Positions 33,580 through 57,596 of a stretch of DNA of 64,000 bases are shown piece after piece. The position numbers were made by a program, and so were the translations under genes. The notes beneath the pieces were generated by a model. The model ran no database searches and was not told where the DNA came from. It saw only the letters and a program-made list of their open reading frames with translations. Every line of letters begins with the position of its first letter. Within the stretch, counting starts at the first letter, position 1. This DNA is from Psammoneis japonica (taxonomy: Eukaryota): NCBI GenBank assembly GCA_008632985.1, contig QPGO01000086.1, positions 1 to 64,000 on the forward strand, read 5' to 3'.

Positions 33580-33755
33580 TGTGCAGCTGCACAGAGCATG
33601 TGCTGTGGCCCATCATCATGTGCAAACGAGTCTGTGATGGTTGCAGCAGTGTGTGTTGCCAAGTCTTGTGCCAGGTGCAGGCCATGAAGGTCCCAGCTTT
33701 TTAGTCACTGTGCCAGTGCAAGCCACATTTTCTCTGTGGGATTCAACTTGGGGGG
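33580..33755 (-). mobile_element. Second, inverted Tc1/IS630-type transposase fragment abutting the gap
   Basis: PKLNPTEKMWL..KSWDLHG on the minus strand, homologous to ~32140-32260. Confidence 0.55.
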
Positions 33756-33866
33756 NNNNNNNNNNNNNNNNNNNNNNNNNNNNNNNNNNNNNNNNNNNNN
33801 NNNNNNNNNNNNNNNNNNNNNNNNNNNNNNNNNNNNNNNNNNNNNNNNNNNNNNNNNNNNNNNNNN
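33756..33866. other. Assembly gap (111 N)
   Basis: Run of N. Confidence 1.
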
Positions 33867-34860
33867 GTCATTTCCTGTCTCTTGGTGCACTCTTCTTTGG
33901 CAAATGCACACACCCTGTGTTTCTCAGAGAAACACAGCAGCTGGCAAAATCATGGCAGCATGTTGGGGTGCAAAGACCTTGGAAATGTTTCATGGACTCC
34001 AGTGTTTGGAGCTGCATTTGTTCTCACAGGATGCACGAATCTAGATTGGCTCCTTCAGAGCATTGCTGGCAATTGCTGTTTTTGTTTTCTTCTTGGATGT
34101 CATTGGCTTCTGTGGGTTTGGCAAGCAGTGGTGCTGCACTCCTCACACTTGTGTTTGCACAATTGTTGTTGCAATCTTTCAAGGGACTGCTGTGCAGAGA
34201 GCACTGCCATCAGCTGTGCATTCTTCAACTTTTGGAGCACTCAAGGGCTTGCAGTTGAGAAATCTCAGGAGAACAGCTGCTTGTGCACTTTCCACATGGG
34301 CCAACTGAATGCAAGCTGTGGATCTGGCAGAAGCAATTTTGCTCAAGGCAACAGTCGTGAGGATCAGAGTGTCTTCAGCACATTGTTTCAACAAGATTCT
34401 CTGTTTTTCTGCTTCTCTCAATTTCAATCATGTGGGGCAATCAACGCCAGCAGCACAGTGCTCTCAGCGGATGCTCATTTCAGTGTTGCTCCTGTTGCAC
34501 TCAAGAGCTTCTACAAAGGTCTCTTCTTTCTTCAAACTGTTTTGGCATCAAAGTGCATTTGACAGATCGGCCCATTCATGATCTTGTTCATCATGCACCT
34601 TTTTCCTTCAATGTGTGGTCTCTCATTTGTTGTCAATGTTTGGGCACAGCGTTGTTGCTGCTTTTTGGTTGTTCTTTGTTTGATGCCATTGACTGTCCTT
34701 CACTGACAAAGCGCAAATCCTCTCCATCAAATGCAGCACACACATGGGGCAAGTCTGCCTCAAGATGAGCAGCAATGTCCACCAGACATGTGTGAGTTGC
34801 CCACGTGCTGTTGGCATCATTGTTGCTTTGAACCAGACGGAAGCTCTTGGTTGCAAAAAC
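33867..34860. repeat. Unclassified dispersed repeat A, copy 1
   Basis: Colinear diverged homology to ~47730-48800, e.g. GGAGCACTCAAGGGCT and TTTCAACAAGATTCTC. Confidence 0.7.
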
Positions 34861-35489
34861 TGCCCAATGTTTGTGATTGAACAACATGCACAGGGGCAGC
34901 AAGCACCTGTTGGCACAATTTGATGTGGCTGTCTGCAAAGTCAAAGTCCATCAATGTGAGAATAGCTCTGATGGTCAGCTGAGGTTGCAACCCCAACAAG
35001 CGGTGCAGCTGCAGATCTTGGGCCAAAACTTTGGCACTTTCAACCAAAATCATGTCAAAGACATGGCATTCACCATTGTTGTGGGGCAGTTTGGTGTCAG
35101 CCATGAGCCAACCAGCTGTGGCTTGCACATTGGAAACCAATCTGTCACAAAAAATTGGGTGTTGCCTTGTTTGTGGCAAAGTCAGGGCAGAGCTGTTGTG
35201 CCCAGCCTGCTCTGGCAAAAATGGTGCGGCAATTAACAAGATCATCAAACGTGTCATGGGAGTGGCAGAAAGCTGAGTTTGATTGCACAGCATGCCAGCA
35301 TTGATGTGCTTGCCTGGAAAACCCTGTGCAAATTGCCCCAGCTTGACAACTGTGGGTTTGCTGCTCTCCATCACAGCAGAAGCTCCAGCCAATGAGAGTG
35401 CTGGCAAGCAAACCACAGAAGCACCCAAACTTAGAATGAGATGTTCTCTGTGCCCTGATGTCAACAAAGGCATCAGATGCTGCACTTGC

Positions 35490-36920
35490 TTTCATCTCCT
35501 GTCAAGGGAAGATGAGTGCTCTTTTCTGCATCTTTGCAAAGCCCACTCCAGTTGTGGCATTTGCCAAGAATGTGACTTGCTCTTGCTGGTGATTTTGGCA
35601 ACCCCCAAAGCTTTTGGGTGGGTGAATTTTTTTGTGGTGACAAGGAGCTTGACAAGACATCTCAACTCCTTTCATGTGCAAGTGCTTGCAGAGCCGCTGC
35701 ACAAACTGTGCTCCCAGAGCATGCAGATGATCTTGCAGAAGCTGCTGGAGCTGCACTTGTGTGGCTGTGTTGCTTCTGGAGTGGCTGTGTTGCTTTTGCC
35801 AATGTTGTGATTTGCTGCAATGGTGCTGGCAGCAGCTGCATTGCTGGTCAAATTGTTGCCCTTCTCTCATGGCAACACCACCTGCATTGCTGCAACAGAG
35901 TCCTTGGTGATCTTTCCCAACAGGCGCATGTTCCTAAAGAATGCCATCATGACAAAAATGGCAAGGATTAAAGTGCACATGATGCCATTCCAGCAGTGCA
36001 TCTTGGCACCACCACCGCTTGGCAAGCAATGGTTGAAAGCCCCCCAGACATCCATGCTCTTTCTGTCTCAAAGTTGCACAGTTTCAGTGCTTGTGCAGCA
36101 GCCACATTTTTCAAAGGAGTGGGTTTAAGGAAGCAAAAAATGGGGACTGATGAAAGGCTGGAGTCAAGTTGGGATGATGAGAGCAACAATTGTGAGCCAT
36201 TTTGGCACGCTCGATGAATTTTGAAATGGGCAAAAGACAGCACAACATTTTTGGAACATGCCGGCAAGCATTTCTGAATTTAGTGCAAGGTTGTCTTTGT
36301 TGAAAAAATGTTTTTTAAGAAACTAACAATGTCACAATTTTGGGTTCTTGCTCCAAAATTTGTGCATTTGTGGTGGAAAAGACCAGTTGTGGTTGGCCAA
36401 CAAATGCCCAAAATGAGAATTTTCACAAAAATCAATGACTCAAAAGTGCGGCATCCAGCTCAATGATGGCCATTGGCACAAAGAGGTTGAGCTGCAGTTT
36501 GACTTGATCAACACCCTTTCTTCATTTGCAAAGCCGCTTGCCATGAGAGGGGGTGGTTGGTTGACCCCCCTTTTTGGTTCATGCATGGGGGTGTGTGAAG
36601 ATTGCTTGGTTTTGGAGAGTGCCTTGTGGTGGTCAAGACCAAGTTTCTCACCTGAGCAACCAGGAAAACTGAAAGAAATGCATGGGCCAAAGCTTGAAAG
36701 AGGGCACCCGAACAAGCCCTTCACTGTGGCAAGGAGGAGAGTCTGTCATGTCCTGATGTGTGCATCCAAGGTGATGTGCAGATGACCTTGCTTTTGGTTG
36801 CTCCAGCATGGCAGGATTTTTTGTCCTGAGTGCAAAAATCTTCTGTCTGACATTGGACCCTGCTTCTCGGTGGGAAAATTCGTCCACAACAGCCGCAGCT
36901 TGTTGGCCAACAAACCCTTG
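35490..36920. repeat. Unclassified dispersed repeat B, copy 1
   Basis: Homologous to ~58330-58700 and ~60100-61250, e.g. TTTTCAAAGGAGTGGGT and GGTGGAAAAGACCAGTTGTGGTTGGC. Confidence 0.7.
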
Positions 36921-37696
36921 CTTGTCTTGCAGCCTCCACAAGTTTCTTGTCAACTCACTGGTGCTTTTCTTGCTCCAACTTCACAACTCCCATCTCCTGC
37001 CAGCTCTGTGTTTCATCACAGCAGACACAAAATGTTTGCATTGTTTGACTTGCGCCCCACACAGCAGCACTTGCTTTTTTCATTTTTTCTTGATGACCTC
37101 CATGCTGCTGCTTCATTTGCAGCTGGCACAACTTTCTGTGCACTTTTTTCAACCTTTCTTGCCATCCACCCTCCACCCTCCACCACACCTTCCTGCCCTC
37201 CTGCCCTTGTTGGTGTTCAGATGATCTTTGCATGTCTTTTTCTGAAGCTTGGTTCCAGCGCATGTTCGCTTCTGTGAGCACAACAACAAAGCACTCATGT
37301 CATCAGCTCTGTGCTTTGCTCTGCTTGTTTGTGTTCATGTGTGGCATGTTTTGGCTTTTTTCATGATGGGTCAGTGTTGGTTTCTCAGAGCTCAACTTGT
37401 CCAATCAAGCTGGCTGGTTGTGCCACCAGCCAGTCATCCCAGAGTCGTTCCAAGCCAATGAGTGCAACATCATTTCATGTTGCTCAGTGCAATTTGTCCA
37501 CATTTTCAGCATGAAAAATGCTTTGAACACCATTTGCTTTGAAAGGTTTTCAAGACCATTGGTGTGCAGAAGTGAGCGTGTGAGTTCCAGGGCATGCATT
37601 TGCACTTGTTTGGTGTGGCATTTGAGCTGGAAGGGAGAAGGACAGATGCCGCAGCCACTCACAGCTCACAGCCCATCTTGAAAACGGACCAAACAA

Positions 37697-38660: not shown

Positions 38661-38868
38661 TTGTCAATGTCATTTCGGACATTTCCACATGTCGCTCACG
38701 TCATCGAGATTCAAATCTCTTCTCTTCTCACAAATTTGGTCGTTGAGACCTCTCCTCAGTTTGCAATCATAATTTCTCCACAGAGAACTTTGACAACGAC
38801 TTCTGCTGCTCCATTGCAACCTTGAGCTCTTGCTCTTTCTAACACAAGCTACTTTGTCGCATCTTCAG
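38661..38868 (+). repeat. 5' LTR (shared portion; may extend ~50 bp further left)
   Basis: Matches 46403-46612. Ends ...CATCTTCA and is followed by PBS-like TGGTCACGAG. Confidence 0.85.
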
Positions 38869-39374
38869 TGGTCACGAGTCCCAATTTCGCATGGCGTTTG
38901 TTCCGCCGCCGGGAAAGCGCTGTCGATTGGGTCATCAAAGCTTCCATCTGCCACCAACGTCGATTCGTTCGTTTCCACCAAAACGGTCACGTTGTTTGAC
39001 GTCTGAACGACACCTCCAGTCAATGTCAGACACACCCTGCGTTGCCACTAGCCGCCATTGTTCGATTGACAAGATGGCAGCCCATTTTGCTTCGCGGAAT
39101 CGATCTACGATCTCCAACGAGTTCCGAACTTGAAACCCCAACGTCCGTGTGTTTCAAACCAAACCCGGATCGAGTTCCTGCGACTCTCCAGTCCTTTGTC
39201 AATCAAGAACAGCTCCTCAAGTCACGTCACGGGTTGCTCATGTCGTGCCATTGATTGTTGCAATCGTTTGGCGCCGTTCTTCAAGCTCTGCGACTCGAAG
39301 TTCGTTCCATTGATCCATTGTCGAGTTGACTGCGTACATTTGGCACCACAGCTGGACAAAAGTTGTCTCTGCCA

Positions 39375-41687
39375 TGACGAACAATCCTCCTCTGCCCAAG
39401 ACTCCTGCCAGTCAGCCTCCGCCGCCTCCCACGGCACAACAAAACCAGTCGACAGGTGCTGCTGCACAACAGAACCAGTCGACGGGTGCCGCCGCTCAAC
39501 AGAACCAGTCCACCGGTGCCACCGCTCAACAGAACCAGTCTGCTGGTGCCACTGCTCAACAGTCGTCACGTTCCAACGTTCAGCACCCTCGTCCACCTCC
39601 GGTCCATGGTGGAATCCATCCGGAATGTGGTCGCTGCATGGGTGGATCACCGCTGGATGATGACTGCCATCTCAAGCTCAAGCGCACCTGTTGCTCTGCC
39701 AACCAGTCTCGGGACAAGAAGATTCTTCCTCACACAGAGCGCAATCTCCGAGATGCCCGAGATGGAGCCGACGTCGTCAAGTTCGACGGGAACCTGGAGA
39801 TTCCTGATGGCAAGACGAATGAGCTCGACAAGGAACACTTTGTTCAAGCAGTCCGCACGTTAGTGAATGAGCATGGATTGGAAAATTTTTTCGTCATGAA
39901 GTTGGACAAGAAGGTCGTTGACCTCTTCACTCACCTCCACAGCTTCGCCGTTGACGAGGTCATTGCAGAGCATGACGAATGCGCCAACAAGGCAACAGAC
40001 GATTCGGCACACGACGAACATGAGCACGACGATGTCAATCTTTCACATCTTGTCGTCGAGTCTCGCATCACTCACCAACTCTGCGAGAAGATTGAAACTC
40101 AGTTCGGTCATCGCGACCTCTTCCGTTGCCACCCTGGGCAAATCATTTTTGTGATGGCACTTGAGACTTGCAATGCCTCCACCGTGCATGATGTCGCTCA
40201 AGCTGCTGAAGACTTCGAGGATTTGACGCTTGACTCCTGTGCTGGCGAGGATGTTGCCGAGTTTGCCACCGAGGCTCTCCGTCTCACCAAGATCCTGCAA
40301 ACAGGATGCATGCTCCCCGTCTCTCTTGGGTCCGATCTCCTTCGGAAGTGCTCCAAGACCTCTGGCGAAGCGCTCAATCGAGCAATCTTTGCCCAGTTAG
40401 ACAAGGTGACGGCCATGGAACGCAAGCATCGTTTGATGGACCCAGCGCCACTTGCCAAGGACAAGGACTGCGGAACTCTTGGTCTGACTGCGTGCATCAC
40501 CTCTTCCTTCAGACGAGGCATCGTAACTTCGTCACCGATGAGGGCTGGCCCGGTCTCTCCACTGAACTCCCTCAGGGCAACCACACCTGGCGCAAGGGAG
40601 CTTGCAACGCTTGTGGTGCTCCAGACCACTGGGCCAATGACAAAAAGTGTCCCAAGCATGCGGAACGTCAGCACCTGAAGAAGCTTGCCCGCCAACAACG
40701 CAAGGGCCAACCGCCAGCAGGGACTCCACCCCCTCCCGGCACCATCACTCCAGCGAATGTGCCTGCGGACAAACAAGCGAAGTTCAAGGAGCTGTTGGCA
40801 AACGAGCCCCATCGCTGCACTCGTCCGGCTGATCTCAACCAGCCAGTCGTGAACAAGTGTGGTTCGACTGCTCACTTTTGCACCAAGTGCACGTGCCACC
40901 ACACTGGCATCAAGGGCCTCTGTGCTGGTCACAAGGATGGTGCCCATGCCAACAAGCCACCCAAGAAGGAACAGCCGGATGCCAACCTTGCTTCTGTGCT
41001 GATCCCGATTCCGGCGTGCCGGCTGGGCCACCCACTCAGACCACCGCCGATCCTGCATCTTCCAAGCCCGATCCATCGTCTGACAATGATGCTCCCCCCA
41101 TTTTGGAGGAGGAACCAGTCTGGACCAGGTTCTGTTGCTGTCCTGTCGAGGACGCATCCGGCAATGCTGCTCCCGTTGTGCGAGTCTCCGTCCTTCCCAG
41201 CCCCACCGTTGAGAGGGAGCAGCGCGCAATTTTGGTTGAGACGGTTGACCCGGAAGACGCTGACGATTTCAGCGATTGCTGCGACACTCACGACAATTTG
41301 GATTGGGATGATTCGGTCATCCTCTTTCCTGCTTCGATGTTCCCACCGGAGCCTTCTATCTTGGACAATCCGCCGCCTCCTGTTGAGTCTCCTGAGCTTG
41401 ACGACGAGTTCTACGACACGATCACTGAGCCTGCTCCGAATGTCCTTGACGTGGAACCTCAGCCCACTTCTTGCTGGCTCTGGTCCCTCCTCAAGATCCC
41501 AGTCTTTTGGTTCTCTGCTCTTCTTTGGGAAGGCATCCTGTGGCTGGTGGGTGCTGGTGGTGACCCGCCGCCGCCCTCGCGTTGCTGTCGCCATCTCAAG
41601 CGCAAGCCCACTCTTTTCAGTTGTCCGTGTCGTTGGGGCGTGATCTCCTGTGCAATTGCGCTTTGGCTCTCCATCTGTCTTGGCTGA
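39375..41687 (+). pseudogene. Copia gag-like ORF (frameshifted) with a 30-bp tandem repeat encoding QQNQSTGAAA
   Basis: ORFs 39326-40678, 40306-41643 and 40857-41687. CNACGAPDHWANDKKC knuckle-like motif. Four repeat units at ~39436-39560. Confidence 0.7.
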
Positions 41688-41711
41688 GCCCCGCCCCATC
41701 CTGGTGTTCCT

Positions 41712-44700
41712 TTGCAGTGCCTCTGCTCTCAGACCCACGCAGTTCTTCAAGCTCTTGACGAACGTGTCGTCTTGACCCCTGGCACCCTGCTGCAGCATCA
41801 CCATCTGAAGATCAAGCAGTTCCAGCATGAGGTCTTGGCACCAGAGGGAGCAACGCATGACATGACGACCTTGCCTTTCAAGCTTCACGAGTTGATCGAG
41901 GCCTGTGAGCTCAATGACTGCTTTGACACCTGTGAGGACCTGCCTGTCTTTCAAGAGTCCTTCTTTGATGCTGCTGCCTTTCGCGAGTTGGACTTCTCCA
42001 GTCCTGACATCTTTGGGATCTCTGAGTTGTGTCGAGCCCACCATGTGGTCGACTGCACCGAGTTCCAACCTTCTGTCGCGGAACTGGTTGCTCAAGCTGC
42101 TGGTGCGTCCCCTGCTTCCATTGGACAACCTGCTGCAGCTGCTGTCCAGGCTCTCACAGGAGCCACCCAAATGTCTCACCTGGCTGGGGACCCTGCCGTT
42201 CTCATGTCCGTCGGGCAGTCGTCACTGGAGGTCGTCTTCGATGCTGGCACCTTGCTTGCTGTCTCTCCAGATGAGGAGGACTTTGATGGCGAGATTGAAC
42301 TGCTGTCTGAGCCTCTCAAGCTTGGTGGGATGGCCAACGGCCTTCCCGTCGAGGGCGTTGGTGCTGTCTCTTGGTGCTTCCAGGCTGCCGATGGCAGTGA
42401 CGTCAATGTCCAGACTCGCTGCCATTGTGTCCCTCGTTCCAAGGTGCGCCTCCTGTCCCCTCAACGTCTCTTTCATCCTGCGGGCATTCGAGGCCATTTT
42501 TGGGGCGACAGTGAGATCTTCAAGATTTGTTTTTACGGCACACCCGAGATCCAAGTTCCGTGCGATGAGCGCTCAAACTTGCCGGTTGGTTGTGCATCTT
42601 GCGGCGCTGTGTTCACTCCTCAGGTCAATTTGAGCGCTGTTGCTGACACTGACAATCTCAATCTGTCCTCTGGGCAGAAGCTGCTCATGGATGTGCATGC
42701 TCGGTTTGGGCATCTCAACTTTCCATGCATCCAAGCTCTTCTCTGCCGGCCTCCTTTCACCGCTCTCAAGTTCGCATCTGCTTCCAAGTGTGACATCCCC
42801 AAATGCAATGCCTGCAAGCATGCCAAGGCTCACCGCCGTCCTGCTTGGGCCCAACGGAAGACTGCTGTCCCTGAACGCGATGGTGCACTCAAGGCTGGTC
42901 ATCTCCATCCAGGTCAGTCCGTGAGCATTGATCACTTCGAGTCGCGTCTGAAGGGTCGCACCTGCGATTCCCGTGGCAAACCCTCCTCCCAGCAGCATGT
43001 TGGCGGCTGTGTTTTCGTCAATCATGCCTCTGGGTTCATGCACACTGAGCATCAAGTTGGTTTCTCTGCAGTTGAGACGACACGGGCAAAACAAGGTTGT
43101 GAGCAGATGGCTCTGGGTCATGGTGTCGTCGTGCAGGAGCACCTTGCCGACAATGGTGCTTTCAAGGCCAACAAGTTTGTCACCCACATCCGCGAATCTC
43201 AGCAATGCATCCACTGTTGTGGAACGAACGCCCATCACCAGAACGGCATTGCGGAGCGGTCCATTCATTCCACATCCAACATGGTGCGAGCCATGATCCT
43301 CCGCGCGTCCATCCATTGGCGCGGTGGCATTGACAGCTCCTTGTGGCCCATGGCGGTCAACTGTGCCGACGCGTTCCAGCCCTAGGTGGGAGCTCGTAGT
43401 GCTGACGTGTGACAACAATAATTTTTATCATCCGTCGTATGTTTCGTACGTAGATTTCTACGTGTGATGATTAAAAAAAATTGTCCAGACTCGCTGTTTT
43501 GCGAAGCCCCAGACGTTTTATATAACAAATTTATAGAAACAATAATGCGCCAGTTACATTCTTCAATGTCTGAAGAATGTAACTGGCTAAGTAAAAAATG
43601 ATGTACTTCAATCATGTGCGAGTTTGTGCGTTCGCAAAATTGCCTCATTTTCTGTTGGCGATCATTGACATTTTAATTACCGTATAATTTTACTACGGAG
43701 CTCGCAGGTAGAAGTCTGCGGGCCCAATGTCACACGGATTCCCACCTGCGTCTGGAACGCGTCTGCCGCCCACATCTGCAACAACACTCCGGGATCAAAT
43801 GGACTTTGTCCTGCCGACATTTTCACCGGATCCACCGTCCCACGCCACCGTTTGCTCGATTTACATGCTTGGGGTTGTCCTGTCTGCGTCTTGGATCCCA
43901 AGTTGCAGCAAGGACAGAAATTGCCGTGTTGGCAACCACGATCACGGTGTGGTGTTTTTCTTGGCCTCAGCTTGGTTCGCACTGGCAAGGTTCCACTGGT
44001 CCTGAACTTGAATGCCAGGTCCATTGCTCCTCAGCATCATGTGGCATTCGACGATCTCTTTGCCACGGTCGCATTGATCGAGAGGGAGAGCAAGCCACCT
44101 GATCACTGGGAAGAGCTCTGTTTGGAGAGTGTCACCCAGATGCCACTGGATTCGAGCAACAAACAATTGTTCCTCCAAGACAATTGGCTCACTCCTGCAG
44201 AACTCCAGCAGAAACAGTGACATGAAGAACGTGAGCATCTCGTCAGGAACACATGTCAACAACAGCCTGCCGCTACGAAGTCTTCGAAGCCCATCGCTCC
44301 AGTCATCGAACCGCTGCCATCCACACGTCCCAACACATCCATGCCATCAAATTCAGATGACTTGCCATCGGCGCCACCCCAGGAACCGCCATTGCAGCCA
44401 CCGCAAAACCCCAGTCCATCAATGAGCGATTCTGAAGTTGGTCATGCACCGCCTCCCGCACATCCGCCACCTCAATCTGGCCCGGAGTCATCGGACATCC
44501 CAGTCCCGGCTCCTGATGTTCCAGTCCCATCCACGACTGAGCAGAACGTGCGTCGCTCACAAAGATCAAACAAAGGCAAGCGAGCTACAACTCGTTTTGC
44601 TGACGAAGTCCATTTGGCCTCAGTGGAGCCATTGGATGCTGGAGGACACCATTCCCAGCTCGCCTGTCTTGCTGAGATCCAGACCTGCTGTGACAGTGGA

Positions 44701-46393
44701 CAGTTGGATGTTCAAGACCCTCGTGTCTGCGCTGCAAAGGCCAAGAAGAATGACGATGCGCCAAACATGCGGGAAGCTCTCACAGGCAAATTCGCCGAGC
44801 AATGCGTCGAGGCCATGAAGACTGAAGTGGCCACGCTTGTTCATCGTAAAACTTGGAAATTTGTCAAGCGCGATTCATCTGTGAACACACTGAAATCAAC
44901 ATGGGCATTTAAGTTGAAATGCTTGCCCGACGGCACTCCGCTGAAATTCAAGGCTCAATTTTGTTGTCGTGGCGATTTGCAGCAAGAGGGAGTCGACCAC
45001 TTCAAGACTTGCGCTCCAGTGGTCCAGTGGTCGACTGTTCGTTTGCTGTTGAGTGCTGCATTGCAAGAAGGGTGGACAACTCGTCAAGTTGACTGCACAA
45101 ATGCGTTTGCACAAGCTGACATCACTGAAGACGTTTGTGTCGAACCTCCCAAGTGCTTTGGTCATCCTTCAGGTACGAACGTGGTTCTCAAGCCACTCAA
45201 GATGCTCCATGGGTTGAAACAAGCCCCGAAATGCTTCTGCAAAAAGCTTTGCGAAGGATTGCTTGAACGAGGGTGGATTCAGTCAGCTGTAGATCCATGT
45301 CCATTCTTCAAGGATGGTGTGATTTGTGTCGCATGCGTCGATGACACCATCCTCGCTGGTGCCAACGGAGACCTTCTGGAACGCGAGATTGCCGCTCCAG
45401 GAATTCAAAAGGAAGAACAACGTCACATTTTTGAGCTTCGTAATGAAGGAGAAGTTGGCGACTTCCTGGGTGTCAAGATTCGCAAGACCGGACCCAAGGA
45501 GTTTCTCCCAACTCAACCAGGTCTGACTGATGAGGTCCTCAAAGCTGCTGGCATGGAAGATTGTCGTCCTTCTCCCATGCCTTGCACTGCTTCTCCATGC
45601 CATGCTGATTCAGAGGGAGCCGATTTCGCTGAACCATGGGATTGCCGGTCCATTGTGGGGTGCTCATGTGCTTGTCGGCAAACTCCCGTCCCGATGTCAC
45701 GTGCGCCACCCATCAAGCCGCTCGCTTCTCCTGCGCTCCCAAACACTCTCATGCTGTTGCAGTGAAGCGCACTCTTCATCATCTTCAAGGTGCCAAGGAC
45801 AAGGGCCTCCATCTACGCCCTGACGACAACCAACGAGTTGATTGTTTCGTGGGTGCCGATCTTGCTGGACTCTGCGGTCATGAAAACTCCCAAGACCCCG
45901 TGAGTGTCAAGTCTCACACAGGACACGTCATTTTGCATTGCGACTGTCCCATTCTGTGGGTCTCCAAGCTGCAGATGCAGATTGCCCTCTCCACTGTGGA
46001 GGCAGAACATCTGGCACTGTCGGCTGGCATGCGCGACCTGATTCCCATCCGAGAAATTTTGAAAGAAATTCAGCATCACGCACTCGGGCACAAGAATGCT
46101 TCTACTCCCACTGCTGCCAAATCTGAAGCCTTTTCTGATGTGAAAGATGGCGCGATTCCTTCCTCCATCGTCTGCGAGGACAACCAAGCGTGCCTCAAGT
46201 TCGCGAAAATGGCGAAGATGTCTCCTCGCACCAAACACATTGGCATTCCCTGTCATTGGTTCCACACTAAAGTTGAAGCGCTCGAGATCGTCATTGAGCC
46301 TGCAGGAACCGACTCTCAGCTTGCAGATCAGTTTGCAAAGGGGTTGGTCCAAGCTCTGTTTGAATCCGGTCGGAAGAGTCTGTCTGGCTGGCA
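41712..46393 (+). pseudogene. Copia pol (PR-IN-RT-RH), inactivated
   Basis: Domain motifs with Tyr->Cys/His substitutions, a MITE inside IN, a frameshift near 45660, and the likely terminal LxGW* read as TGG CAG. Confidence 0.9.
43368..43763. mobile_element. 396-bp MITE, copy 2 (TA-rich, essentially unmutated), inside the Copia integrase
   Basis: TIRs GACGCGTTCCAGCCCTAGGTGGG and CCCACCTGCGTCTGGAACGCGTC. TSD TGCC at 43364-43367 and 43764-43767. Removing it restores SLWPMAVNCAAHICNNTP. Confidence 0.92.
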
Positions 46394-46402
46394 GCTCTGC
46401 GG

Positions 46403-46612
46403 TTGTCAATGTCATTTCAGACATTTCTGCATGTCACTTACATCATCAAGATTCAAATCTCTTCTCTTCTCACAAATTCGGTCATTGAGACCGACCCTCT
46501 TCAGTTTGCAATCACAATTTCTCCATGGAGAACTTTGACAACGACTTCTGCCACTCTGTTGCAACCTTGAGCTCTTGCTCTTTCTAACACAAGCTGCTTT
46601 GTCGCATCTTTA
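46403..46612 (+). repeat. 3' LTR (5' part and polypurine tract apparently missing)
   Basis: Colinear with 38661-38868 and begins ~10 bp after the end of RNase H. Confidence 0.85.
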
Positions 46613-46679
46613 GTCTGTGCTCTTCTTCACTCCGAACTTCTGGTGGTCTTTCAGCTCACATTGTCCTCCAAAGCCTTTC

Positions 46680-47720
46680 CATTCCAAATGTGAGATCAAT
46701 CATCCGTGGTGTCTCTGGGAACTCGGCTGATGGAAACCTTGCGGCGCTAATGGGTTCGAGTGGTGCAGGCAAAACTAAGGTGGACAGGACTGGGGGCACC
46801 CTCAAGGTGAACGGAATTGAGACTGAATTGACACGGTGCCGCAGCACTTTGTCCCACAGGAGAATGTCATGATTTGTGACCTTGCAGCTGCAGCGAACAT
46901 TCTGCACTCAGCATCAATGCACCTCCCGATCGACGGGTCAAATGAGAAGAAGCTCGCGCTTGTTGTCGACGAGACAATCGACTCCCTCGACATTGATCGT
47001 CTTTGTGATTACGTCGTCCGAGAAGAGAATCGCCGGGGGATCAGTTGTGGGCAGCGCAAGTGTGTCAACAATCTGTCGAGATGGGGATGAAGCCAAGTGT
47101 TCTTTGCCGCGACGAGCCAAATCTGGTGAGCTGGAATCGACTGCATCTCCAGCAGTTCGAGAAACTCAAATGATTTGCAAAATCGGGAAAAAGCGTCACA
47201 TGAGATTTTTCTCCTGTTTGAGATGCTCCCACTCCTTGGCAAGAGCGGCCGCACCTTGTGTTGCGGAAGTGCTCCACACATGAAAGAGTGCTTTGAAAAA
47301 CGAGGATTGCGGTTGCCACTGATGGCCAATCCTGCCGATTGCACATGGACAGAGAGTGGCTGTGTGCTCCTGCGAATCCGGGCTCTGTCTCTCTGGAGGT
47401 GGCTAAACGCACTGCTGAAAGCAAGAGAGAACAGAAGTGTCGGAAAGAGATTTCGGTAGAGTGTGCGTCGGTGTTCAAGCACATTTTGCCGATCTCTGCA
47501 AACACCTCTTTCGAGAGTCTGGCAAGGACAAAAGGGGTCATCAAGCAGCTCCCGGTGTGCTCACTCAGTTTCTTTTGCTTTTCGATAGATTCCCGAGTCT
47601 GCCGTTTTGTGCGATGGCATCCCAAGCACCTTGAGGACACAGATGGCTTCTGGCAGGGACATCTGAAAGAGAACGTGACCCGGTCAGATCGAATCCCATC
47701 CAATTCTGACCTCTGTGCAC
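46680..47720 (+). pseudogene. ABCG (White-type) transporter NBD pseudogene, 3' part
   Basis: IIRGVSG..ALMGSSGAGKT (Walker A), FVPQEN, RGISCGQRK (signature), and EIFLLF..LLGKSG..FEKRG..PLMANPAD. Multiple frameshifts. Confidence 0.85.
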
Positions 47721-47729
47721 TTCTTCTTG

Positions 47730-48800
47730 CTTGTCATGTCCCACCTCTCTGTGTGTTCTTTTTGGCGAATGCACACACTCTGTGATCTTCAGAGAAACAC
47801 GGCATCTGGTGAAATCGTGACAGCACATTGGGCTGCAAACACCCAGGAAACATTTCATTGAATCCGGTGTTTTCAGCTGCGTTCGTTCTCATCGGATGCA
47901 CGAGTCCGGATTGGTTCCTTCAGAGCAATGGCACTTGCTGTGTGTTCTCTTCGTGGATGTCATTGGCTTCTGCGGGTTTGGAATGCTCACAAGGCTGGTG
48001 GTTGACAAGCTGTGGTGCTGCACTCCTTGCAATTGAGTTTGGTGCAATTGTCACTGCAATCTTTTTAGGGACCGCTGCACACAGAGCACCACCATCAGCT
48101 GTGCATTCTTCATCTTTTGGAGCACTCAAGGGCTCGCAGTTAAGGAGCATCAGGAGAACAGCCACTTGTGCGCTTTCGACATGGACCAACAGAACGCGAG
48201 CTGTGGATCCGGCAGAAGCAATCGCTCGAGTCGACAGTTGTGAGGATCAGAGCATCTTCAGCACATCTTTTCAACAAGATTCTCCGTTTTTCTGCTTCTC
48301 ACAATTTCGATCATCTGGTGCAATCAATGCTTGCAGCAGCAGCTAGAACAAACACAACATCTTAAAATTGTTGGTGATTCTGCTCTCTACATTTGACCAA
48401 TCGTCGAATCCCAGCACTCTCAGCAGATGCTCATTTCAGTGCTGTTCCTGCCGTGTGCCATGGAACTTCCCAAAACATCTCTTTCTTCAAACTGTTTCGG
48501 CATCAAAGTGCATTCGGTGGATGGGCCCAATCATGTTTGTCGTGCACCTTCCTCTTCAATGTGTGGCTCATTCGTTGTCGACATTCGGGCACGGTGTCGT
48601 TGTTGCTTTTTGAGTGCTCTTTTGACACCATTGACTGTCCTTCACACTGACAAAATGCAAATCCTCATCCTGGAATCCACGTTTACATCCACACGGGAAA
48701 GTGTGCCTCAAGATTGGCAGCAACATCCACCAGACAGTTGTGAATTGCCGAAGCACTGGTGTTGGTCTTGTTTGGAACCAGATGGCTGTGGAACAAAGCG
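47730..48800. repeat. Unclassified dispersed repeat A, copy 2
   Basis: Homologous to 33867-34860. Confidence 0.7.
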
Positions 48801-48915
48801 GCTTCGAACACTGCCGGTGGTAGATAGAGCGGTAAAAAAATGTTCATTCGTCCTGGTTTACGCATCCTCATCACAAACTAATTCACGTCGTCGAGCGACT
48901 CTAATGTTGTGCAAC

Positions 48916-49965
48916 TCAATTCTCGAAGTCAACCCACCAAATCTCATGCTGAAACGGATCGTCCGAGCCGCCCTGGTCTTCAAAGACAGCCGAGAAATGA
49001 TCGCATTGTCCCGGGTCTTTTGAAGCTTCAACACCGACTTTGTCAATGCAATGTTCACCATTGCCAAAGTTCAAGTCAAAGCCAGTCACAACGCTCCTGC
49101 ACGTCGGCAAACCAGCAAACCTAAAACCACATTGGGACACAGCAACATCACCTCGTTCCGGTCCAAAAGATCCGGAATGAGCAACCTTGTCACTCGGGAC
49201 AAGAGCATGCCGGATGTGCCATTCAAAGGGATCATCCCTGCCATTGTCTTCCAAGCAAACTTGAATCGTCGGCGAGGACTGGTCATCACTGACGCGAACC
49301 CGAATGTGGTCGATGTTGTTGTCGACGTCTGCACCTGCGCACCAAACCTCGAATCCTTGAAGAACACAGTGGCGCCCCGGAGAGTGGAATTTCGATGATG
49401 AGAAGCACCCTTTGTGGGGCCCACCAATGTCCCACGAGCCAATGTCCTGGTGCCTTGTTCCTTCAGGCATTGCCACTGCACGAACGTCGCAGCAGCACGG
49501 ATCGTCACCACTCTTGTCGGCAAAACGAGTCTCAACATGATGAGTGTGAGGCCAAATGCCCAATCCCCTAAAGCTCCTGTCGTTGTGAACGTTGTCAAGA
49601 GTGAAGCAACTGAAACTGGGCTTTCTGGCGAAGCTTCCGCCGATCCAATCGGATTTGCCCTGCCATCCTGTGGCATTTCCTTTCCCCGTCAATGGCTGCG
49701 ACGGATCCTTGCAGTTGAAAGGAGCATGGACACCACAATCCCAGCGGCTGTTTTCGTCGCAGGTGTTTTCACAGCAGTCGCCACCGTCACATCCACACTC
49801 TGGGACATTGCAGTTCTCAAGGTTCGAGTCGCTGCTGTCACACCAACCATCGCCCACATGGCTGGGCGTTTCAGTGTGGCACCTGGGATGTCCAGGAACT
49901 TGTTGCCCACTCGAGAGCTTGAGCACCACCAAGAGTGCGCCAGTGATGACTTGACCAATCTTCAT
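48916..49965 (-). pseudogene. Secreted LNR/Notch-like-domain protein gene with an open frame but no Tyr codons
   Basis: Signal peptide and GDGWCD...NCNVPECGCDGGDCC, where the consensus has N-Y-N and G-Y-DGGDCC. No Tyr in 349 aa. Confidence 0.7.
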
Positions 49966-50159
49966 TGTTCAGCATGCCTTCAAACGATTTGTGGCGATGG
50001 TCGCCAGGTTTTGATTTCATCATTGCAGCATTCTTGCCGCGGTCTCTTGACTCTTGAGTCTTGGGTCGAACGCACTTTCGCAAATCTCTTTTTACGGACA
50101 TTGCGGTGGTGAGCATTGTTCGCGCTTCACTTGTCTTTGGACAAGCTCCATTTGTCCAT

Positions 50160-51527: not shown

Positions 51528-51539
51528 TTGAGCAGCTTT

Positions 51540-52260: not shown

Positions 52261-52681
52261 CCCATTCTGGATGAAGTGCCCTCACCCAGACAGCACGCTG
52301 ACCTGCCATGTGCAGAGACTGCTGACACCCGACTGCCAAGACAATGAGAGCACCTTGACACACCAACTCCAGTGCCAGAATGTTTTCAAATTTTGCATGT
52401 GCAGCAATCGAAACATGCACGTGACAACCACCCCTTGCTCGCACAACTGCGTTAACTGCATGACATCTGTTTCCTCCTCAAAAAGCACATGTCTGCCATG
52501 CAAAGTTCTCTGGCATTGGAAAAATTTACAGAGACATTCGTTGGTTGTCTGATCACTTGTCACAACAAATGTTTGCATGTGGAGTGAACCTGCAATCCTC
52601 AAAGCACCACACACCATCAACACCACATGCACATCTCATTTTTTGTGCAGGTCAATCCTGGCAAATGGGTGCAAGACAAAA

Positions 52682-53434
52682 ATGAAGTTTGCCTTGGCCT
52701 CGATCGTGAGTGTTTGGTGCTTTGCATCTGCCAGCGGTGCTGACAGTCCAAAGGACAAAGAGATGCAGGAATCTCTTCTCGACAGGCTCTTGTGTGGCTG
52801 TGGAGTGAACCGTGGAGCCTGCTGCTTCAACCATGGACCCAAAGAGTGCCTCGTCCTCAGTCCTGGAAACTGCCACAGGAGGGGAGGCAACTTTTTAGGA
52901 GCTGGCACAGTGTGTGCACCCTGCAACAGATGCACATGCCCCAAGCATCCTGCCCCCAAGCCAACACCATCACATCCCAAGCATCCCACCCCCAAGCTGA
53001 TGCCATGCCCAGCCCCAAGCCCACACCACACCCAACCCACATGCCTTGCAAGGACTGCTGTCCTGCCCCCAAGCCGGTGCCACACCCAACCCCCAAGCCA
53101 GACTGCTGTCCTGCCCCAAAGCCGGTTGAAGTGTGAGAACAATTGTGCTGACATCAAGAAGAAACTCTGTGAGCACCATGGAGGTGACTTTGCTGGCAAG
53201 GGCATTCTTTGCAGCAAGAACACTTGCCCAGCCACTTGCGGTGCCTGCTGCAAGAAGGATGGCTCTTGCATTGTGGTCAGGAAGAAGTTTTGCAAAAACA
53301 TCAAGGGACACTTTCTTGGATTTGGTGCCATCTGCAAGAAGCACATCTGCCCCAAGCACCCTTCACATGCAGCCAAAAGTGCCAGCAAAAACTGTGGTTC
53401 CAACTCTGAAACAGTGGCAAAAGCAGACATTTGA
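52682..53434 (+). pseudogene. Secreted Cys-rich (GACC-repeat) and Pro-rich protein gene, hypermutated
   Basis: Signal peptide MKFALASIV, GACC...C...GGxFLGxGTxC repeats, and (H/C)PTPKP-type repeats probably derived from YPTPKP. No Tyr. Confidence 0.6.
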
Positions 53435-53523
53435 AAACAATGGCGTTCATGCTTTTTGTTGTGATTGATGGTTGCAGGCATTCACTTGAGAAATGAGCTC
53501 ATGATGAAAGAGCCAAGCAGTGG

Positions 53524-55180
53524 GTGAAATTGGAAAAACAGCTCCAGAAACTGTGCAAAGAGGCATGTGAACACGATCAATCAGAAGTGGAGAAATGCTG
53601 GCAGCGACTGGTGCATCCACAAGGGGACATCATTCTGGAGGTTGTCAATTGGCTCAAGAGTGACAACACTCCATTCATGCAGTGTCCATTTGAAGCAGAA
53701 GCTCAGCATGCAAAGCTGCAGAAGGATGGTCTTGTTCAATGCACCATGTCAGAGGATGGGGATGTCTTTGGGTGTGGCACAAGCAAGTGGACAATGAATG
53801 TGAGACATGAAAGCAGCAAGTGCTGCACCCTTGATTCCGCTGTTGTTTGCACAAGAGAGAGTGCCGGTGGAGGCAGATGGAGCAGTTTTTTGTCGGTCAC
53901 ACCAGCTTTCAGGGGTTGCGACTGCAACGTGAAACTGTGCCGGCTTGACTTTAAGAAAGAAATGGACGCACATGCATCCAGCAATGAAAAGCACACATTT
54001 TTGCTTGACATCAAGTGCCGCCACAAATGGCCACCCAAAGCAGCTGGGGAGAGGTTGTCTCTGAAGCCTGCAGCGGGATTTGCTGCAGATGCTGAACAAA
54101 CAATCAACATGTTCAAGGCACACCCAATTTTCTTTCTGACACCAACAGAGACTGACAATGGCGCTTGTCTGAGCAACAGTGTGAGTCATGCTGTGGGTTC
54201 ACTCACCCCTTTTTGAATGATGTCAATGCTTGCATTGTGCCAGCCCTGATCACTGGGGGGTGCAAATTGGATTTTCCTTGTCACCGGTGGCTGTGTTGTC
54301 TGCAAACAGAATCCCCTTGGACAAGTGTGATGACATGATGACAGCGTCACTCTGGGGAAGGTCAGGATGTCCATTGGCAGAGCAAGCAATGCCATGTCAG
54401 TGCCATGACAATCGGTGCCTTGTTCAGCACAGAACAGCTGCAAATTTTGATCCAGAGGATGGTGGAGTTCCTCCTGAGCACTGTTGCGACAAAGTGTTTT
54501 TGTTTCTTGAAAGCTGACCAAAGTCTTCATCCGTTGCATGCTGGGCAACATCAGCCAAGACAAGCAGAGAGTTGTTGAGGGAGACAAAGCATCTTCTTGA
54601 GGTTGGGAGCAGGCCAGGGATCCGAGGTCTAAAACCAAAGGCACTGTCTGAGTTTTGGAAAGAAACAGGCTTGTTTTTGATGAATCTGACATTGTCTGTG
54701 AGAGATGGCAAAATGCTGATTTTTGATGATGCAGATGTGATGAGCAGTGTTCAACCACTGTGTGAAACCAATGATGACATCATCGCCAATGCAATCTTTG
54801 CCAAAATGAGAAACGGTGTCCAACATCATGCATGCCGGCACATGGACAGGGGGCATTGTGACATTGATGCACTTGGCTGCACCCATGTCATGTTCAAAGA
54901 GAGCCAGGAGCCTGGACTCACACTTCAAATTTTAGTCACACCATCTCAAAAAGCAAGTCCATGCTGAGCGCACCATGCATTCAACCATCTTGGCCAATTT
55001 TGCAAGTGTCCTGCAAGTCATTGTGCATGCCCTGCTGTGAAAGGCTGTTCTCACTTTCTTGGATGCTTGGGCATTTTTCATTTGATCCAAGTCAACAAGG
55101 GTTGGATGAAAGAAGAGCTGAAAGCAGCATGTCCACCACCAGTCAAGTCAATTCAGAGTCTGCCGGTTCCCTGGGAAGCT
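53524..55180 (+). pseudogene. XPG/Exo1-family nuclease-like region followed by a SWIM-like zinc finger
   Basis: CPFEAEAQ..L...GLV...SEDGDVFG.G and GCDC (from GCDY) match XPG-I motifs. CACPAVKGCSH at 55022-55054. Confidence 0.65.
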
Positions 55181-55187
55181 GGTCATT

Positions 55188-55960
55188 TTGGACCCAACGA
55201 TGGTGAACTCCACAAAGGAAGCTGGAAAGGCCTGTCTTGAGCTTCTCAAAGTTGAGGGAGAAGGAGAGCGTGGTGCTGAAGATGAAACCACTGAGCACAC
55301 AGCACAGGATGAAGAGGATGATGGTGGGATGCCGGGCCCACTCATGTTGATTTGTGCACATGCTGAGAAGATGGCAGCGGAAGCAAAGAAACGTGCAGAG
55401 GTGATGGAGAGTGACACACAACATGTTTGCCGTGTTGTGCTGGAGTCTCTCAGAGAAGCAAACAAGGCCAAGTTGAATGGAGCAGGAGGACCAAATGAGT
55501 CACTTCACTGCAAGAAAGAGCAGCTGGAAATGTGCGGACGACTCTGCCAAGCAGCTGAAAAGGGAAAGCCGCCCAAGACTCTCTTGTCTCACCACAAAGC
55601 CTTGGCCCTCCCCACCAGGAAGAGACTTCTTGCTCAGACACCCAACATGAAAAACAAAGAGGCGATTTGGAAAAAAATCATGCCTTCTAAAAATCATGCC
55701 CAGTGAAACCATCCCTGGAGACAAGGCTTTCAGTGGGTGTGCACTGTTGCACGGGAATTTCAATGGACAGGATTGTCCTTCCCATCTTGTTGGGAAGACT
55801 TTTGCAGAGGAGAGGTTGAGCAAGACGAGCCTCTCAAAACACTGAGATGTGCCTTGAAGACTGCAACATGAGAGTCACAGATGTCATGTGTCTCGCTGAT
55901 CATGTGCCACGCTCCTTCTTCCCACATTTGCACCATGCCGCAAACTGTGGGGTCAGGGAT
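55188..55960 (+). mobile_element. Harbinger/ISL2EU-like DDE transposase, C-terminal part (degenerate)
   Basis: GDKAF...NFNGQDCPSHL (second Asp region), then GEVEQD..LKTLRC..EDCNMRVTD..LADHVPRSFF (Glu region). Confidence 0.55.
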
Positions 55961-56199
55961 GTGGCAACTTGTGCAACCCCTTTTTTTGTCTCCCTTCTGA
56001 TTGCACACACTTTGATTGTTGGAAGGAGAAAAGGGCAGAAGCCAAACAAAAGTGGGCGGAAATGAAAAAAATCAAGTTTCGAAAAGAAAACAGCGCAAAA
56101 GGGCTGTTCTTGCAGGTTCTGTGGTGCTGGCTGTTCTTTTTGCGGCAAACATTGCATGGCAAAGCTTGCCAACAGACAAATGACCCACACTCACTGGTT

Positions 56200-57574: not shown

Positions 57575-57596
57575 GGGGGGGGGGGGGGGGGGGGGG
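57575..57596. repeat. Poly-G tract (22 nt)
   Basis: Read directly from the sequence. Confidence 0.95.

What the first reader, a model, noticed from the sequence alone, without database searches (positions are those of the whole stretch)
38870..50100. TpA loss is uncoupled from, and faster than, CpG decay
Seen: the Copia body, the ABCG remnant and the LNR gene keep many CpGs yet have almost no TA. Older-looking blocks (13200-18900, 32200-37600, 52300-63400) lack both. The domain edge at ~12200-12630 is also CpG-rich and TA-poor. Inference: there are two clocks, rapid near-saturating TA conversion followed by slow 5mCpG deamination. Both converge on TG/CA, which could be mistaken for methylation decay alone.
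Basis: partly seen in the sequence, partly recalled or inferred. Interest (0 to 1): 0.7.

Follow-up and report, generated by a model that had tools for sequence, protein, structure and literature searches.

The report
TpA-erasing hypermutation in diatom repeat domains
In this diatom-like genome window, transposon-rich silent stretches have had nearly every TA dinucleotide rewritten in place to TG or CA, faster than and separately from ordinary CpG decay, a mutation pattern for which I found no published description.

Summary
In 38870-50100 (an inserted MITE removed) there are 44 TA where 433 are expected at the window's genic rate, but 579 CpG against 603 expected. Older blocks lack both.

It is a real, in-place DNA mutation process:
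- One unit of a five-unit tandem array differs from its siblings at 29 positions. 23 are TA>TG or TA>CA, out of 36 TA sites, against 1 of 47 CpGs.
- No conserved Tyr codon of the Copia survives (11 Cys, 5 His), while 18 of 25 conserved CGN Arg codons do.
- The two Copia LTRs differ almost only at TA/CG/TG/CA dinucleotides.
- High-depth public read contigs carry the TA-free sequence.

The process is TpA-specific (ApA is untouched). It prefers RTAY over YTAR, shows no strand runs and has sharp borders. It hits single-copy pseudogenes inside the domain, and spares flanking genes, a young roughly 1000-copy MITE and four identical array units.

"Uncoupled" overstates it, because CpG loss never occurs without TA loss. 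Methylation was not tested.

The enzyme is unknown; I infer targeted adenine deamination. Nine literature searches found no description.

The parts
12206..13200 (.). Left edge of the TA-poor domain; CpG-rich. The last dense TA is at 12205, directly after the promoter side of the TM9SF/EMP70 gene.
   Evidence: TpA o/e 0.12, CpG 0.71; TA positions
12800..13191 (+). Old copy of the MITE family, with converted TA sites in its termini
   Evidence: Alignment to the young copy: aligned TA sites read TG (4) or CA (9) in the old copy, though the interior aligns poorly
13201..16960 (.). Block poor in both TA and CpG
   Evidence: TpA 0.03, CpG 0.19, TG 1.90, CA 1.69
16970..30070 (+). Tandem array of five 2620-bp units. 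In every unit the first ~2 kb is TA-free; the last ~640 bp keeps its TAs in units 2-5.
18951..19590 (+). 3' part of array unit 1: 23 TA>TG/CA conversions relative to units 2-5, caught part-way
   Evidence: 29 substituted positions: 15 TA>TG, 8 TA>CA, 1 CG>TG, 4 positions in two TG/CA doubles, 1 transversion
30070..32033 (+). Unconverted island holding a MATH-BTB gene (30702-31766)
   Evidence: TpA 0.69, CpG 0.94; Pfam BTB, MATH_2, BACK
32034..37600 (.). Block poor in both TA and CpG; holds repeats related to 47733-48785 and 58335-61252, and a scaffold gap at 33756-33866
38661..46614 (+). Ty1/copia-type LTR retrotransposon, TA-poor and CpG-rich, coding capacity destroyed
   Evidence: RVT_2 at 44221-45765 and weak gag_pre-integrase at 41688-43385; 0 of 17 conserved Tyr kept; multi-copy word depth 172-616
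38661..38869 (+). 5' LTR
46403..46614 (+). 3' LTR
   Evidence: 20 differing positions against the 5' LTR, 18 of them within TA/CG/TG/CA exchanges
43368..43764 (+). Young MITE with ~24-bp terminal inverted repeats, inserted into the Copia; keeps 27 TA
   Evidence: TpA o/e 0.81; sequence; word depth 70,270 against ~67
47130..47456 (+). Possible ABC-2/ABCG transporter remnant (weak)
   Evidence: ABC2_membrane_7 E 0.0037, below cut-off
48919..49968 (-). Tyr-free ORF with one LNR-like module; single copy; probable pseudogene
   Evidence: 0 Tyr, 22 Cys, 19 His; homologues and CGYDGGDC>CGCDGGDC; depth 66.6
52301..63554 (.). Blocks poor in both TA and CpG, with a CpG-richer insert at 58901-60000 and an XPG_I nuclease remnant at 53497-54213

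Best explanation
Shown. The transposon-rich, presumably silent parts of this diatom-like genome undergo a DNA-level hypermutation specific to the TpA dinucleotide.
- One of the two A:T pairs of a TA becomes G:C, giving TG or CA.
- It happens in place after a sequence has entered the domain, hits either strand at random site by site, and runs to about 90-97% completion.
- RTAY sites go first and YTAR sites (TTAA, CTAA/TTAG) last.
- Borders are sharp. Flanking and embedded genes are untouched, while single-copy pseudogenes inside the domain are converted.
- In the same domains CpG>TpG/CpA decay runs roughly 7-50 times slower per site. This gives three states: normal; TA-poor and CpG-rich; poor in both.

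Inferred.
- The agent is an enzyme recruited to silent chromatin rather than a repeat-homology trigger.
- Its chemistry is most likely deamination of adenine to hypoxanthine, which is read as G, in a 5'-T-A-Y context. I put this at about 45%.
- The effect is irreversible transposon inactivation. Every Tyr codon is lost, TAA and TAG stops are lost, and TA-containing signals in general would go too.
- CpG loss probably reflects 5mC deamination.
For: Direction and in-place action.
- Array unit 1 against units 2-5: 23 of 29 substitutions are TA>TG/CA, although TA positions make up 2.8% of the unit (binomial p 5e-31).
- Conserved Tyr columns in the Copia pol: 0 of 17 kept (11 Cys, 5 His, 1 Phe). 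Other residues are largely kept: L 42/50, G 31/34, P 35/36, K 21/22.
- The RT ORF has 0% Tyr, against 1.4-5.1% in all 120 listed homologues.
- LTR pair: 18 of 20 differing positions are TA/CG/TG/CA exchanges, including 4 sites with TA in one LTR only. Identity is 90.4% raw and 99.0% once these are ignored.
- Other copies in run X1 show CA in the window against TG elsewhere at 5 of the 32 difference groups shown, and TA at 2.

Real DNA.
- X1 contigs at word depth 61-67 match the TA-free single-copy blocks with 0-8 differences per 2-3.6 kb.

Specificity.
- AA/TT o/e is unchanged at 1.21, 1.20 and 1.27 across the three states.
- No site in unit 1 shows TA>CG.

Context.
- Surviving TA relative to normal DNA: RTAY 3 against 189, mixed 53 against 360, YTAR 84 against 127 (chi-square 114, p 1e-25).

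Strand choice.
- 12 runs observed against 11.4 expected among the 15 TG and 8 CA outcomes.

Targeting.
- Sharp borders at 12205, 32033 and 63555.
- The single-copy LNR region is converted.
- The ~1000-copy MITE and four identical array units are not converted.

Speed relative to CpG.
Against: - No enzyme, modified base or methylation state was observed. The chemistry rests only on the signature.
- Attack on A and attack on T give the same double-strand outcome and cannot be told apart from sequence.
- The outcome trends that would favour a T-A-Y rule are not significant: Tyr>Cys 11 against His 5, and unit 1 TG 15 against CA 8 (p 0.21).
- CA/TG doubles can also arise from an ancestral CpG, so part of the LTR and paralogue doubles is ambiguous.
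- In the LTRs, CpG loss looks nearly as advanced as TA loss (6 single-LTR CpGs against 2 shared; small numbers).
- Only one 64-kb window and one read set were available. That read set may be the window's own source, and no whole genome is held.
- Genome-wide extent and presence in other species are unknown. None of the 120 listed database homologues of the Copia RT is Tyr-free.
- Why four identical array units keep their TAs is explained only by assuming they are very recent.
Confidence: 0.75

Rival explanations
1. Same targeted TpA hypermutation, but the attacked base is thymine. An enzyme such as a TET/JBP-type oxygenase would modify T in R-T-A context (for example to 5hmU or 5fU), or excision and misrepair would follow, and the result is read as C.
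For: T>C in R-T-A on one strand is indistinguishable in duplex sequence from A>G in T-A-Y on the other. From recall, no call: oxidised thymine is enriched at TpA in some protist DNA.
Against: No such modification is on record for diatoms in anything I searched or read. From recall, 5hmU pairs normally with A, so near-saturating T>C would need a more mutagenic derivative.
Confidence: 0.15
2. No dedicated enzyme. A passive, context-dependent mutation or repair bias of silent, late-replicating chromatin would be responsible, such as polymerase-eta-type WA>WG errors during patch repair triggered by T:G mismatches, or GC-biased gene conversion.
For: The two private substitutions of array unit 2 are A>G at ApA. 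TA and CpG losses share the same domains.
Against: AA/TT o/e is unchanged in converted DNA. In unit 1, 23 TA conversions accompany only 1 CpG event, so CpG mismatches cannot be the trigger. All 23 weak-to-strong (A:T to G:C) changes in unit 1 are at TpA. Saturation of 90-97%, 640 bp converted beside unconverted sister units, and sharp borders fit poorly with a diffuse bias.
Confidence: 0.06
3. RNA-level A-to-I hyperediting of retrotransposon transcripts before reverse transcription, so that the edits are inherited on integration.
For: An A>G signature with a 5' U/T neighbour resembles RNA-editing deaminases (recalled). The Copia is the clearest TA-poor, CpG-rich element.
Against: The two LTRs of one insertion differ at TA-derived sites. 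A tandem-array unit, an old MITE copy and a single-copy LNR pseudogene are converted in place. Both strands are hit.
Confidence: 0.02
4. Sequencing or assembly artefact, for example a modified base at TpA in heterochromatin that is systematically miscalled.
For: The platform of run X1 is not on record, and X1 may be the data the window was assembled from.
Against: Contigs built from exact 31-letter words at full depth (61-67; apparent one-haplotype joints sit at ~32) carry one consistent TA-free sequence. A strand-dependent miscall would instead split the words. The pattern follows evolutionary history: a young MITE inside the domain is unconverted and an old copy is converted, Tyr codons read as Cys or His, and paralogues differ by CA/TG doubles.
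Confidence: 0.02

Closest known systems
Repeat-induced point mutation (RIP) of ascomycete fungi
   Same: Irreversible point-mutation inactivation of transposon-rich DNA. It is dinucleotide-specific, near-saturating, leaves compositionally distinct domains with sharp borders, and spills into single-copy DNA lying among repeats.
   Different: Opposite polarity: RIP turns CpA/TpG into TpA and lowers G+C, whereas here TpA becomes TpG/CpA and G+C rises (0.475 to 0.51-0.54). There is no sign of a duplication trigger, since identical 2.6-kb tandem units and a ~1000-copy MITE are spared. The lineage also differs (diatom-like).
Methylated-CpG decay (5mC deamination to TpG/CpA)
   Same: It produces the same end products (excess TG and CA), acts in the same domains, and very probably accounts for the CpG-poor blocks.
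   Different: It cannot remove TA. TA loss occurs with CpG per kb unchanged and with 1 of 47 CpGs changed in array unit 1.
Deaminase hypermutation of retroelements (APOBEC3 G>A on cDNA; ADAR A>G on double-stranded RNA)
   Same: Clustered transitions with a neighbour-base preference that cripple mobile elements. The ADAR and TadA/ADAT families favour a 5' U/T before the edited A (recalled).
   Different: Those act on replication intermediates before integration and on one strand. Here the change happens in place on chromosomal DNA, on both strands, and also in DNA that is not a retroelement.
Very-short-patch repair depleting CTAG in enterobacteria (recalled, no call)
   Same: A repair-type activity that drives T>C at a TA-containing motif and alters oligonucleotide abundance.
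   Different: It is genome-wide, limited to one tetranucleotide, mild and bacterial. Here CTAG is among the slower sites (survival 0.10) and the effect is confined to domains and near-total.

Membership tests
RIP (fungal repeat-induced point mutation) | C:G to T:A transitions, typically CpA>TpA, leaving TpA-rich, A+T-rich DNA | tested here: not met
   The direction is TA>TG/CA, shown by Tyr>Cys/His and by unit 1 against units 2-5. TpA o/e is 0.03-0.12 and G+C rises.
RIP (fungal repeat-induced point mutation) | Triggered by sequence duplication; both copies of a repeat are mutated | tested here: not met
   Four 99.8-100% identical 2.6-kb tandem units keep 37 TA each. A MITE with ~1000-fold word depth keeps 27 TA. 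The single-copy LNR region (depth 66.6) is converted.
RIP (fungal repeat-induced point mutation) | Acts in the premeiotic stage and depends on a RID-type cytosine methyltransferase homologue | not testable with these tools
   No genome is held and there are no life-cycle data.
5mCpG deamination decay | Loss of CpG to TpG/CpA | tested here: met
   CpG o/e is 0.14-0.26 in old blocks. 7 of 25 conserved CGN Arg codons read TGN or CAN. At 28 sites one repeat copy has CG where its paralogue has TG/CA.
5mCpG deamination decay | Cytosine methylation present on the decaying DNA | not testable with these tools
   No methylation data; only contigs of one DNA run were available.
5mCpG deamination decay | Sufficient on its own to explain the TG/CA excess | tested here: not met
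   In 38870-50100 CpG is 579 against 603 expected while TA is 44 against 433, with TG and CA o/e at 1.43-1.51.
Pre-integration editing of retroelements (ADAR or APOBEC type) | Edits made on RNA or cDNA, hence identical in both LTRs and confined to retroelements | tested here: not met
   The LTRs differ at 4 TA/CA-TG singles and 4 CA/TG doubles. Sequences that are not retroelements are converted.
Ty1/copia LTR retrotransposon (element 38661-46614) | Flanking direct LTRs, RVT_2 reverse transcriptase, integrase upstream of RT | tested here: met
   212-bp LTR pair. RVT_2 E 1.8e-29 at 44221-45765. gag_pre-integrase is weak (E 0.0014, below cut-off) at 41688-43385, upstream of RT. Homologues carry PF07727.

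The most novel reading that the evidence does not exclude
Some diatoms run a genome defence that is the chemical mirror image of fungal RIP. A deaminase, or another base-converting enzyme, is recruited to silent chromatin and acts on duplex chromosomal DNA. It rewrites every TpA in transposons to TpG or CpA, which wipes out Tyr codons and TA-containing signals while raising G+C. The enzyme would be a natural, sequence-specific (T-A-Y) DNA adenine editor, a class not known from any eukaryote. Stramenopile-specific deaminase-SAM-Tudor proteins predicted in PMC3239186 (passages read) are one untested candidate.
Probability: 0.35. Interest if true: 0.95.

Novelty: categorically new. Interest (0 to 1): 0.86.

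Why it matters
- Targeted point-mutation defences against transposons are known essentially from fungi, and only as C>T. A second, chemically opposite system in a major algal lineage would change how widespread and how varied such defences are thought to be.
- It would point to a natural enzyme that converts A:T to G:C in chromosomal DNA with dinucleotide specificity. Engineered base editors had to evolve that activity artificially.
- Practically, excess TG/CA in such genomes cannot be read as methylation decay alone.
- Converted DNA yields long stop-poor, Tyr-free, Cys/His-rich false ORFs that mislead gene finders and domain guesses.
- Repeat dating by LTR identity is badly biased: 90.4% raw against 99.0% once these changes are set aside.

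Tried and rejected
Tools and data that were not available.
- No RNA holder was listed for the window.
- Runs X2 and X3 laid nothing on 34000-53999.

Searches that led nowhere.
- The metagenome scan with the MITE terminal pattern gave 10 loci. All have G+C 0.48-0.64 with ordinary TpA o/e and no blastn similarity to the window, so they are chance hits.
- Rfam and tRNA scans found nothing.
- Pfam finds no Notch/LNR domain even at E <= 5. The LNR-like module was recognised only through four homologues.

Analyses that gave no answer.
- A tetranucleotide mass balance between normal and converted DNA was uninformative, because the compared sequences differ in composition.
- The outcome rule T-A-Y>T-G-Y is only a non-significant trend.

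Explanations rejected.
- Polymerase-eta WA signature and GC-biased gene conversion: ApA is unaffected and all weak-to-strong (A:T to G:C) changes are at TpA.
- RIP in units 2-5 as the source of the unit-1 differences: units 2-5 have ordinary composition (TpA 0.58), and the internal 54-bp repeats support TA as the ancestral state.

Literature.
- Nine searches returned no paper describing TA>TG/CA hypermutation of repeats. Only listings and abstract openings were seen.
- The exception is PMC3239186, of which I read passages.
- Subscription-only papers are outside the library.
Full report
**What the window is.** The left 12 kb carries ordinary genes: an Stc1-domain protein, a CRAL/TRIO protein and a single-exon TM9SF/EMP70 protein. 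The best matches of the EMP70 protein are 64-75% identical. Where a source names them, they come from diatoms (Epithemia, Mayamaea, Nitzschia, Fistulifera, Cylindrotheca, Skeletonema). I therefore treat the window as diatom-like nuclear DNA. From 12206 to 63554 it is a transposon-rich region, interrupted by one 2-kb island with a MATH-BTB gene at 30702-31766.

Over the whole window TpA o/e is 0.23 and TG and CA are 1.56 and 1.55.
- Genes 1-12205 have TpA 0.58 (40.0/kb) and CpG 0.99 (55.6/kb).
- The Copia element 38661-46614, with an inserted MITE removed, has TpA 0.07 (3.4/kb) and CpG 0.75 (54.8/kb).
- Block 46615-50100 has 0.10 and 0.76, and the edge 12206-13200 has 0.12 and 0.71.
- Blocks 13201-16960, 32034-37600, 52301-58900 and 60001-63500 have TpA 0.03-0.04 and CpG 0.14-0.26.
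- In the finding's own span there are 44 TA against 433 expected at the genic rate, and 579 CpG against 603.
- The sum of TA, CG, TG and CA stays at 230-253 per kb in all blocks except the 397-bp MITE. Composition is being redistributed among these four dinucleotides only.

**It is a mutation process caught in the act.** A tandem array of five 2620-bp units lies at 16970-30070.
- Units 2-5 are 99.2-100% identical to each other and each has 37 TA, all in the last ~640 bp. Unit 1 has 13.
- Against the consensus of units 2-5, unit 1 differs at 29 substituted positions: 15 TA>TG, 8 TA>CA, 1 CG>TG, two TG/CA doubles (4 positions) and 1 transversion.
- So 23 of 36 TA sites changed against 1 of 47 CpGs. 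TA positions make up 2.8% of the unit (binomial p 5e-31).
- The direction is fixed by composition: units 2-5 look like normal DNA, with TpA 0.58. It is also fixed by the 54-bp internal repeats, which carry TA in most copies.

**Coding sequence gives the same direction independently.** The Copia RT ORF has 0% Tyr and 5.0% Cys. All 120 listed homologues have 1.4-5.1% Tyr.
- In the RT ORF, none of 10 conserved Tyr columns is kept: 8 Cys, 1 His, 1 Phe.
- Across 42729-46422, 18 codons align to conserved Tyr. One (45642) is a frame-overlap duplicate, which I dropped. None of the 17 is kept: 11 Cys (TGY), 5 His (CAY), 1 Phe.
- Other residues are largely kept: Leu 42/50, Gly 31/34, Pro 35/36, Lys 21/22, Trp 11/12.
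- Leu>Pro (CTA>CCA, 4 cases) and Val>Ala (GTA>GCA, 4 cases) are further TA>CA outcomes.

**The change is made on chromosomal DNA after insertion.** The Copia LTRs (38661-38869 and 46403-46614) align over 209 positions and differ at 20.
- 18 of the 20 are exchanges among TA, CG, TG and CA: 4 CA/TG doubles, 4 sites with TA in one LTR only, and 6 sites with CG in one LTR only.
- Identity is 90.4% raw and 99.0% without these exchanges.
- LTRs are identical at integration, so editing of the RNA or cDNA cannot explain the differences.
- Some CA/TG doubles may descend from CpG rather than TA, so the four TA singles are the cleaner evidence.
- Diverged repeat pairs show the same excess. CA/TG makes up 22 of 56 adjacent double differences in one pair and 29 of 67 in another.
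- In public run X1, other copies of the Copia differ from the window at 425 places, 383 of them transitions. Among the 32 difference groups shown, 5 are CA in the window against TG elsewhere, 2 show TA elsewhere, 14 are CpG exchanges and 11 are other changes.

**It is not a sequencing artefact.** X1 holds 0.87 of the sampled words of 7000-16900.
- Its contigs cover TA-free single-copy blocks almost exactly: 34000-37648 with 8 differences, 46581-50177 with 2, and 51996-53999 with 0.
- Word depth there is 61-67, while several joints that look like one-haplotype variants sit near 32.
- A base miscalled differently on the two strands would split the words and halve the depth.
- X1's platform is not on record and X1 may be the window's own source, so this is not independent confirmation of the sequence.
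- The evolutionary coherence of the pattern is the stronger argument.

**Properties of the process.**
- It is specific to TpA. AA/TT o/e is 1.21, 1.20 and 1.27 in normal, CpG-rich converted and CpG-poor converted DNA. No TA>CG is seen in unit 1.
- Flanks matter. Normal DNA has 676 TA in 15,651 bp and converted DNA has 140 TA in 39,738 bp.
  - RTAY sites are almost gone: ATAT 0, ATAC/GTAT 0, GTAC 0.024.
  - YTAR sites persist: TTAA 0.37, CTAA/TTAG 0.27, CTAG 0.10.
  - Mixed sites lie between (chi-square 114, p 1e-25).
- The strand is chosen independently at each site: 12 runs against 11.4 expected. This argues against one processive pass along a single strand.
- Borders are sharp. Dense TA stops at 12205, resumes at about 29911-32033 and again from 63555.
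- Targeting follows position rather than copy number.
  - The ORF 48919-49968(-) carries an LNR-like module and sits at single-copy depth 66.6.
  - It has 0 Tyr, 22 Cys and 19 His, and reads CGCDGGDC where its homologues read CGYDGGDC.
  - The MITE at 43368-43764 lies inside the Copia at word depth 70,270 (about 1000 copies) and keeps 27 TA. An old copy at 12800-13191 is converted.

**Relation to CpG loss.**
- In 127 bins of 500 bp, no bin keeps TA while losing CpG (0 of 39).
- Of 88 TA-poor bins, 20 keep CpG >= 0.6 and 54 have < 0.4. Rho is 0.76 overall and 0.50 within the TA-poor bins.
- Within one element, 17 of 17 conserved Tyr codons are lost against 7 of 25 conserved CGN Arg codons (p 2e-6). 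In unit 1 the figures are 23/36 against 1/47 (p 2e-10).
- Simple first-order estimates give a per-site rate ratio of about 47 from unit 1 and about 7-8 from the Copia. The later figure is an underestimate, because only slow YTAR sites remain.
- Repeats 33867-34840 and 47733-48785 are both TA-free (2 and 6 TA), but one has 9 CpG and the other 37. At 28 sites the first has TG/CA where the second has CG.
The two processes are not independent in where they act.
- CpG decay in the young Copia is appreciable, and the LTRs hint that it can be fast there (6 single against 2 shared CpGs).

**Mechanism.**
- Shown: a targeted, TpA-specific A:T>G:C conversion of chromosomal DNA.
- Inferred: an enzyme recruited to silent chromatin. 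Near-total saturation, flank preference, sharp borders and the contrast between unit 1 and its sisters are hard to obtain from a diffuse bias.
- Adenine deamination to hypoxanthine in a T-A-Y context is my preferred chemistry, at about 45%. Deamination is the known route to such transitions, and from recall the TadA/ADAT and ADAR families favour a 5' U/T.
- Attack on thymine in R-T-A would leave the same duplex signature, and I cannot exclude it.
- The unconverted identical array units and the young MITE suggest that conversion is either episodic (for example tied to a rare life stage) or simply slower than those very recent events. This is speculation.

**Comparison with what is known.**
- The system works like RIP in outcome, but it fails RIP's defining features of direction and duplication trigger.
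- It is not methylated-CpG decay, which accompanies it.
- It is not pre-integration editing of retroelements.
- Nine full-text searches found no description of such a signature in diatoms or elsewhere. I saw listings and abstract openings only.
- Passages of PMC3239186 predict stramenopile-specific deaminase-SAM-Tudor proteins of unknown role. That is a lead, not evidence.

**Limits.**
- The evidence comes from one window and one read set. No genome, methylation data or RNA were available.
- Breadth across the genome and across species is unknown.
- No Tyr-free relative appeared among the 120 listed Copia homologues.

Noticed in passing
window 4288-5582: The Stc1-domain ORF (4534-5910, Pfam Stc1 E 7e-14) contains 6-8 tandem coding repeats of 168-192 bp at 60-84% identity. 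From recall, Stc1 links RNAi to heterochromatin in fission yeast, so it is curious to find it next to a silent domain, but no link was tested.
   Followed up: no
window 43368-43764 and 12800-13191: A MITE family with ~24-bp terminal inverted repeats. Word depth in run X1 is 70,270 against ~67, suggesting roughly 1000 copies. The young copy sits inside the Copia between the integrase and RT regions.
   Followed up: partly
CpG-poor blocks 13201-18950, 32034-37600, 52301-63500: ApT o/e falls from 0.93 to 0.80 and GpC rises from 1.09 to 1.33 only in the oldest blocks. This may be a slower third change or just the composition of those elements.
   Followed up: no
window 20212 and 20630 (array unit 2): The only two private substitutions of unit 2 are A>G at ApA (GAATG>GAGTG and CAACC>CAGCC). 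Two TG/CA doubles (array alignment columns 439-440 and 1555-1556, i.e. unit-1 positions 17398-17399 and 18514-18515) also split the units. This hints that a few TAs were still being converted while the array grew.
   Followed up: partly
window 32139-32211 / 33682-33754 and 33756-33866: A 73-nt inverted repeat pair (85% complementary, 1470 nt apart) at the start of the TA-free block, with its second arm abutting a 111-N scaffold gap. It may be the ends of a DNA transposon.
   Followed up: no
window 34000-53999 (tables 4-5): Several joints and indels in run X1 sit at about half the single-copy depth (~31-33), for example near 43763/51690 and 51712/51829. This suggests heterozygous structural differences between haplotypes in this repeat region.
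   Followed up: no
window 58901-60000: A CpG-richer (0.76), TA-poor (0.12) segment embedded in an otherwise CpG-poor block, probably a younger insertion. ORF 59299-59934(-) has no Pfam hit.
   Followed up: no
window 53497-54213: An XPG_I nuclease-domain remnant (E 2e-11) with 0 Tyr, 14 Cys and 10 His, inside the CpG-poor block. It is another non-transposon coding remnant that has been converted.
   Followed up: partly
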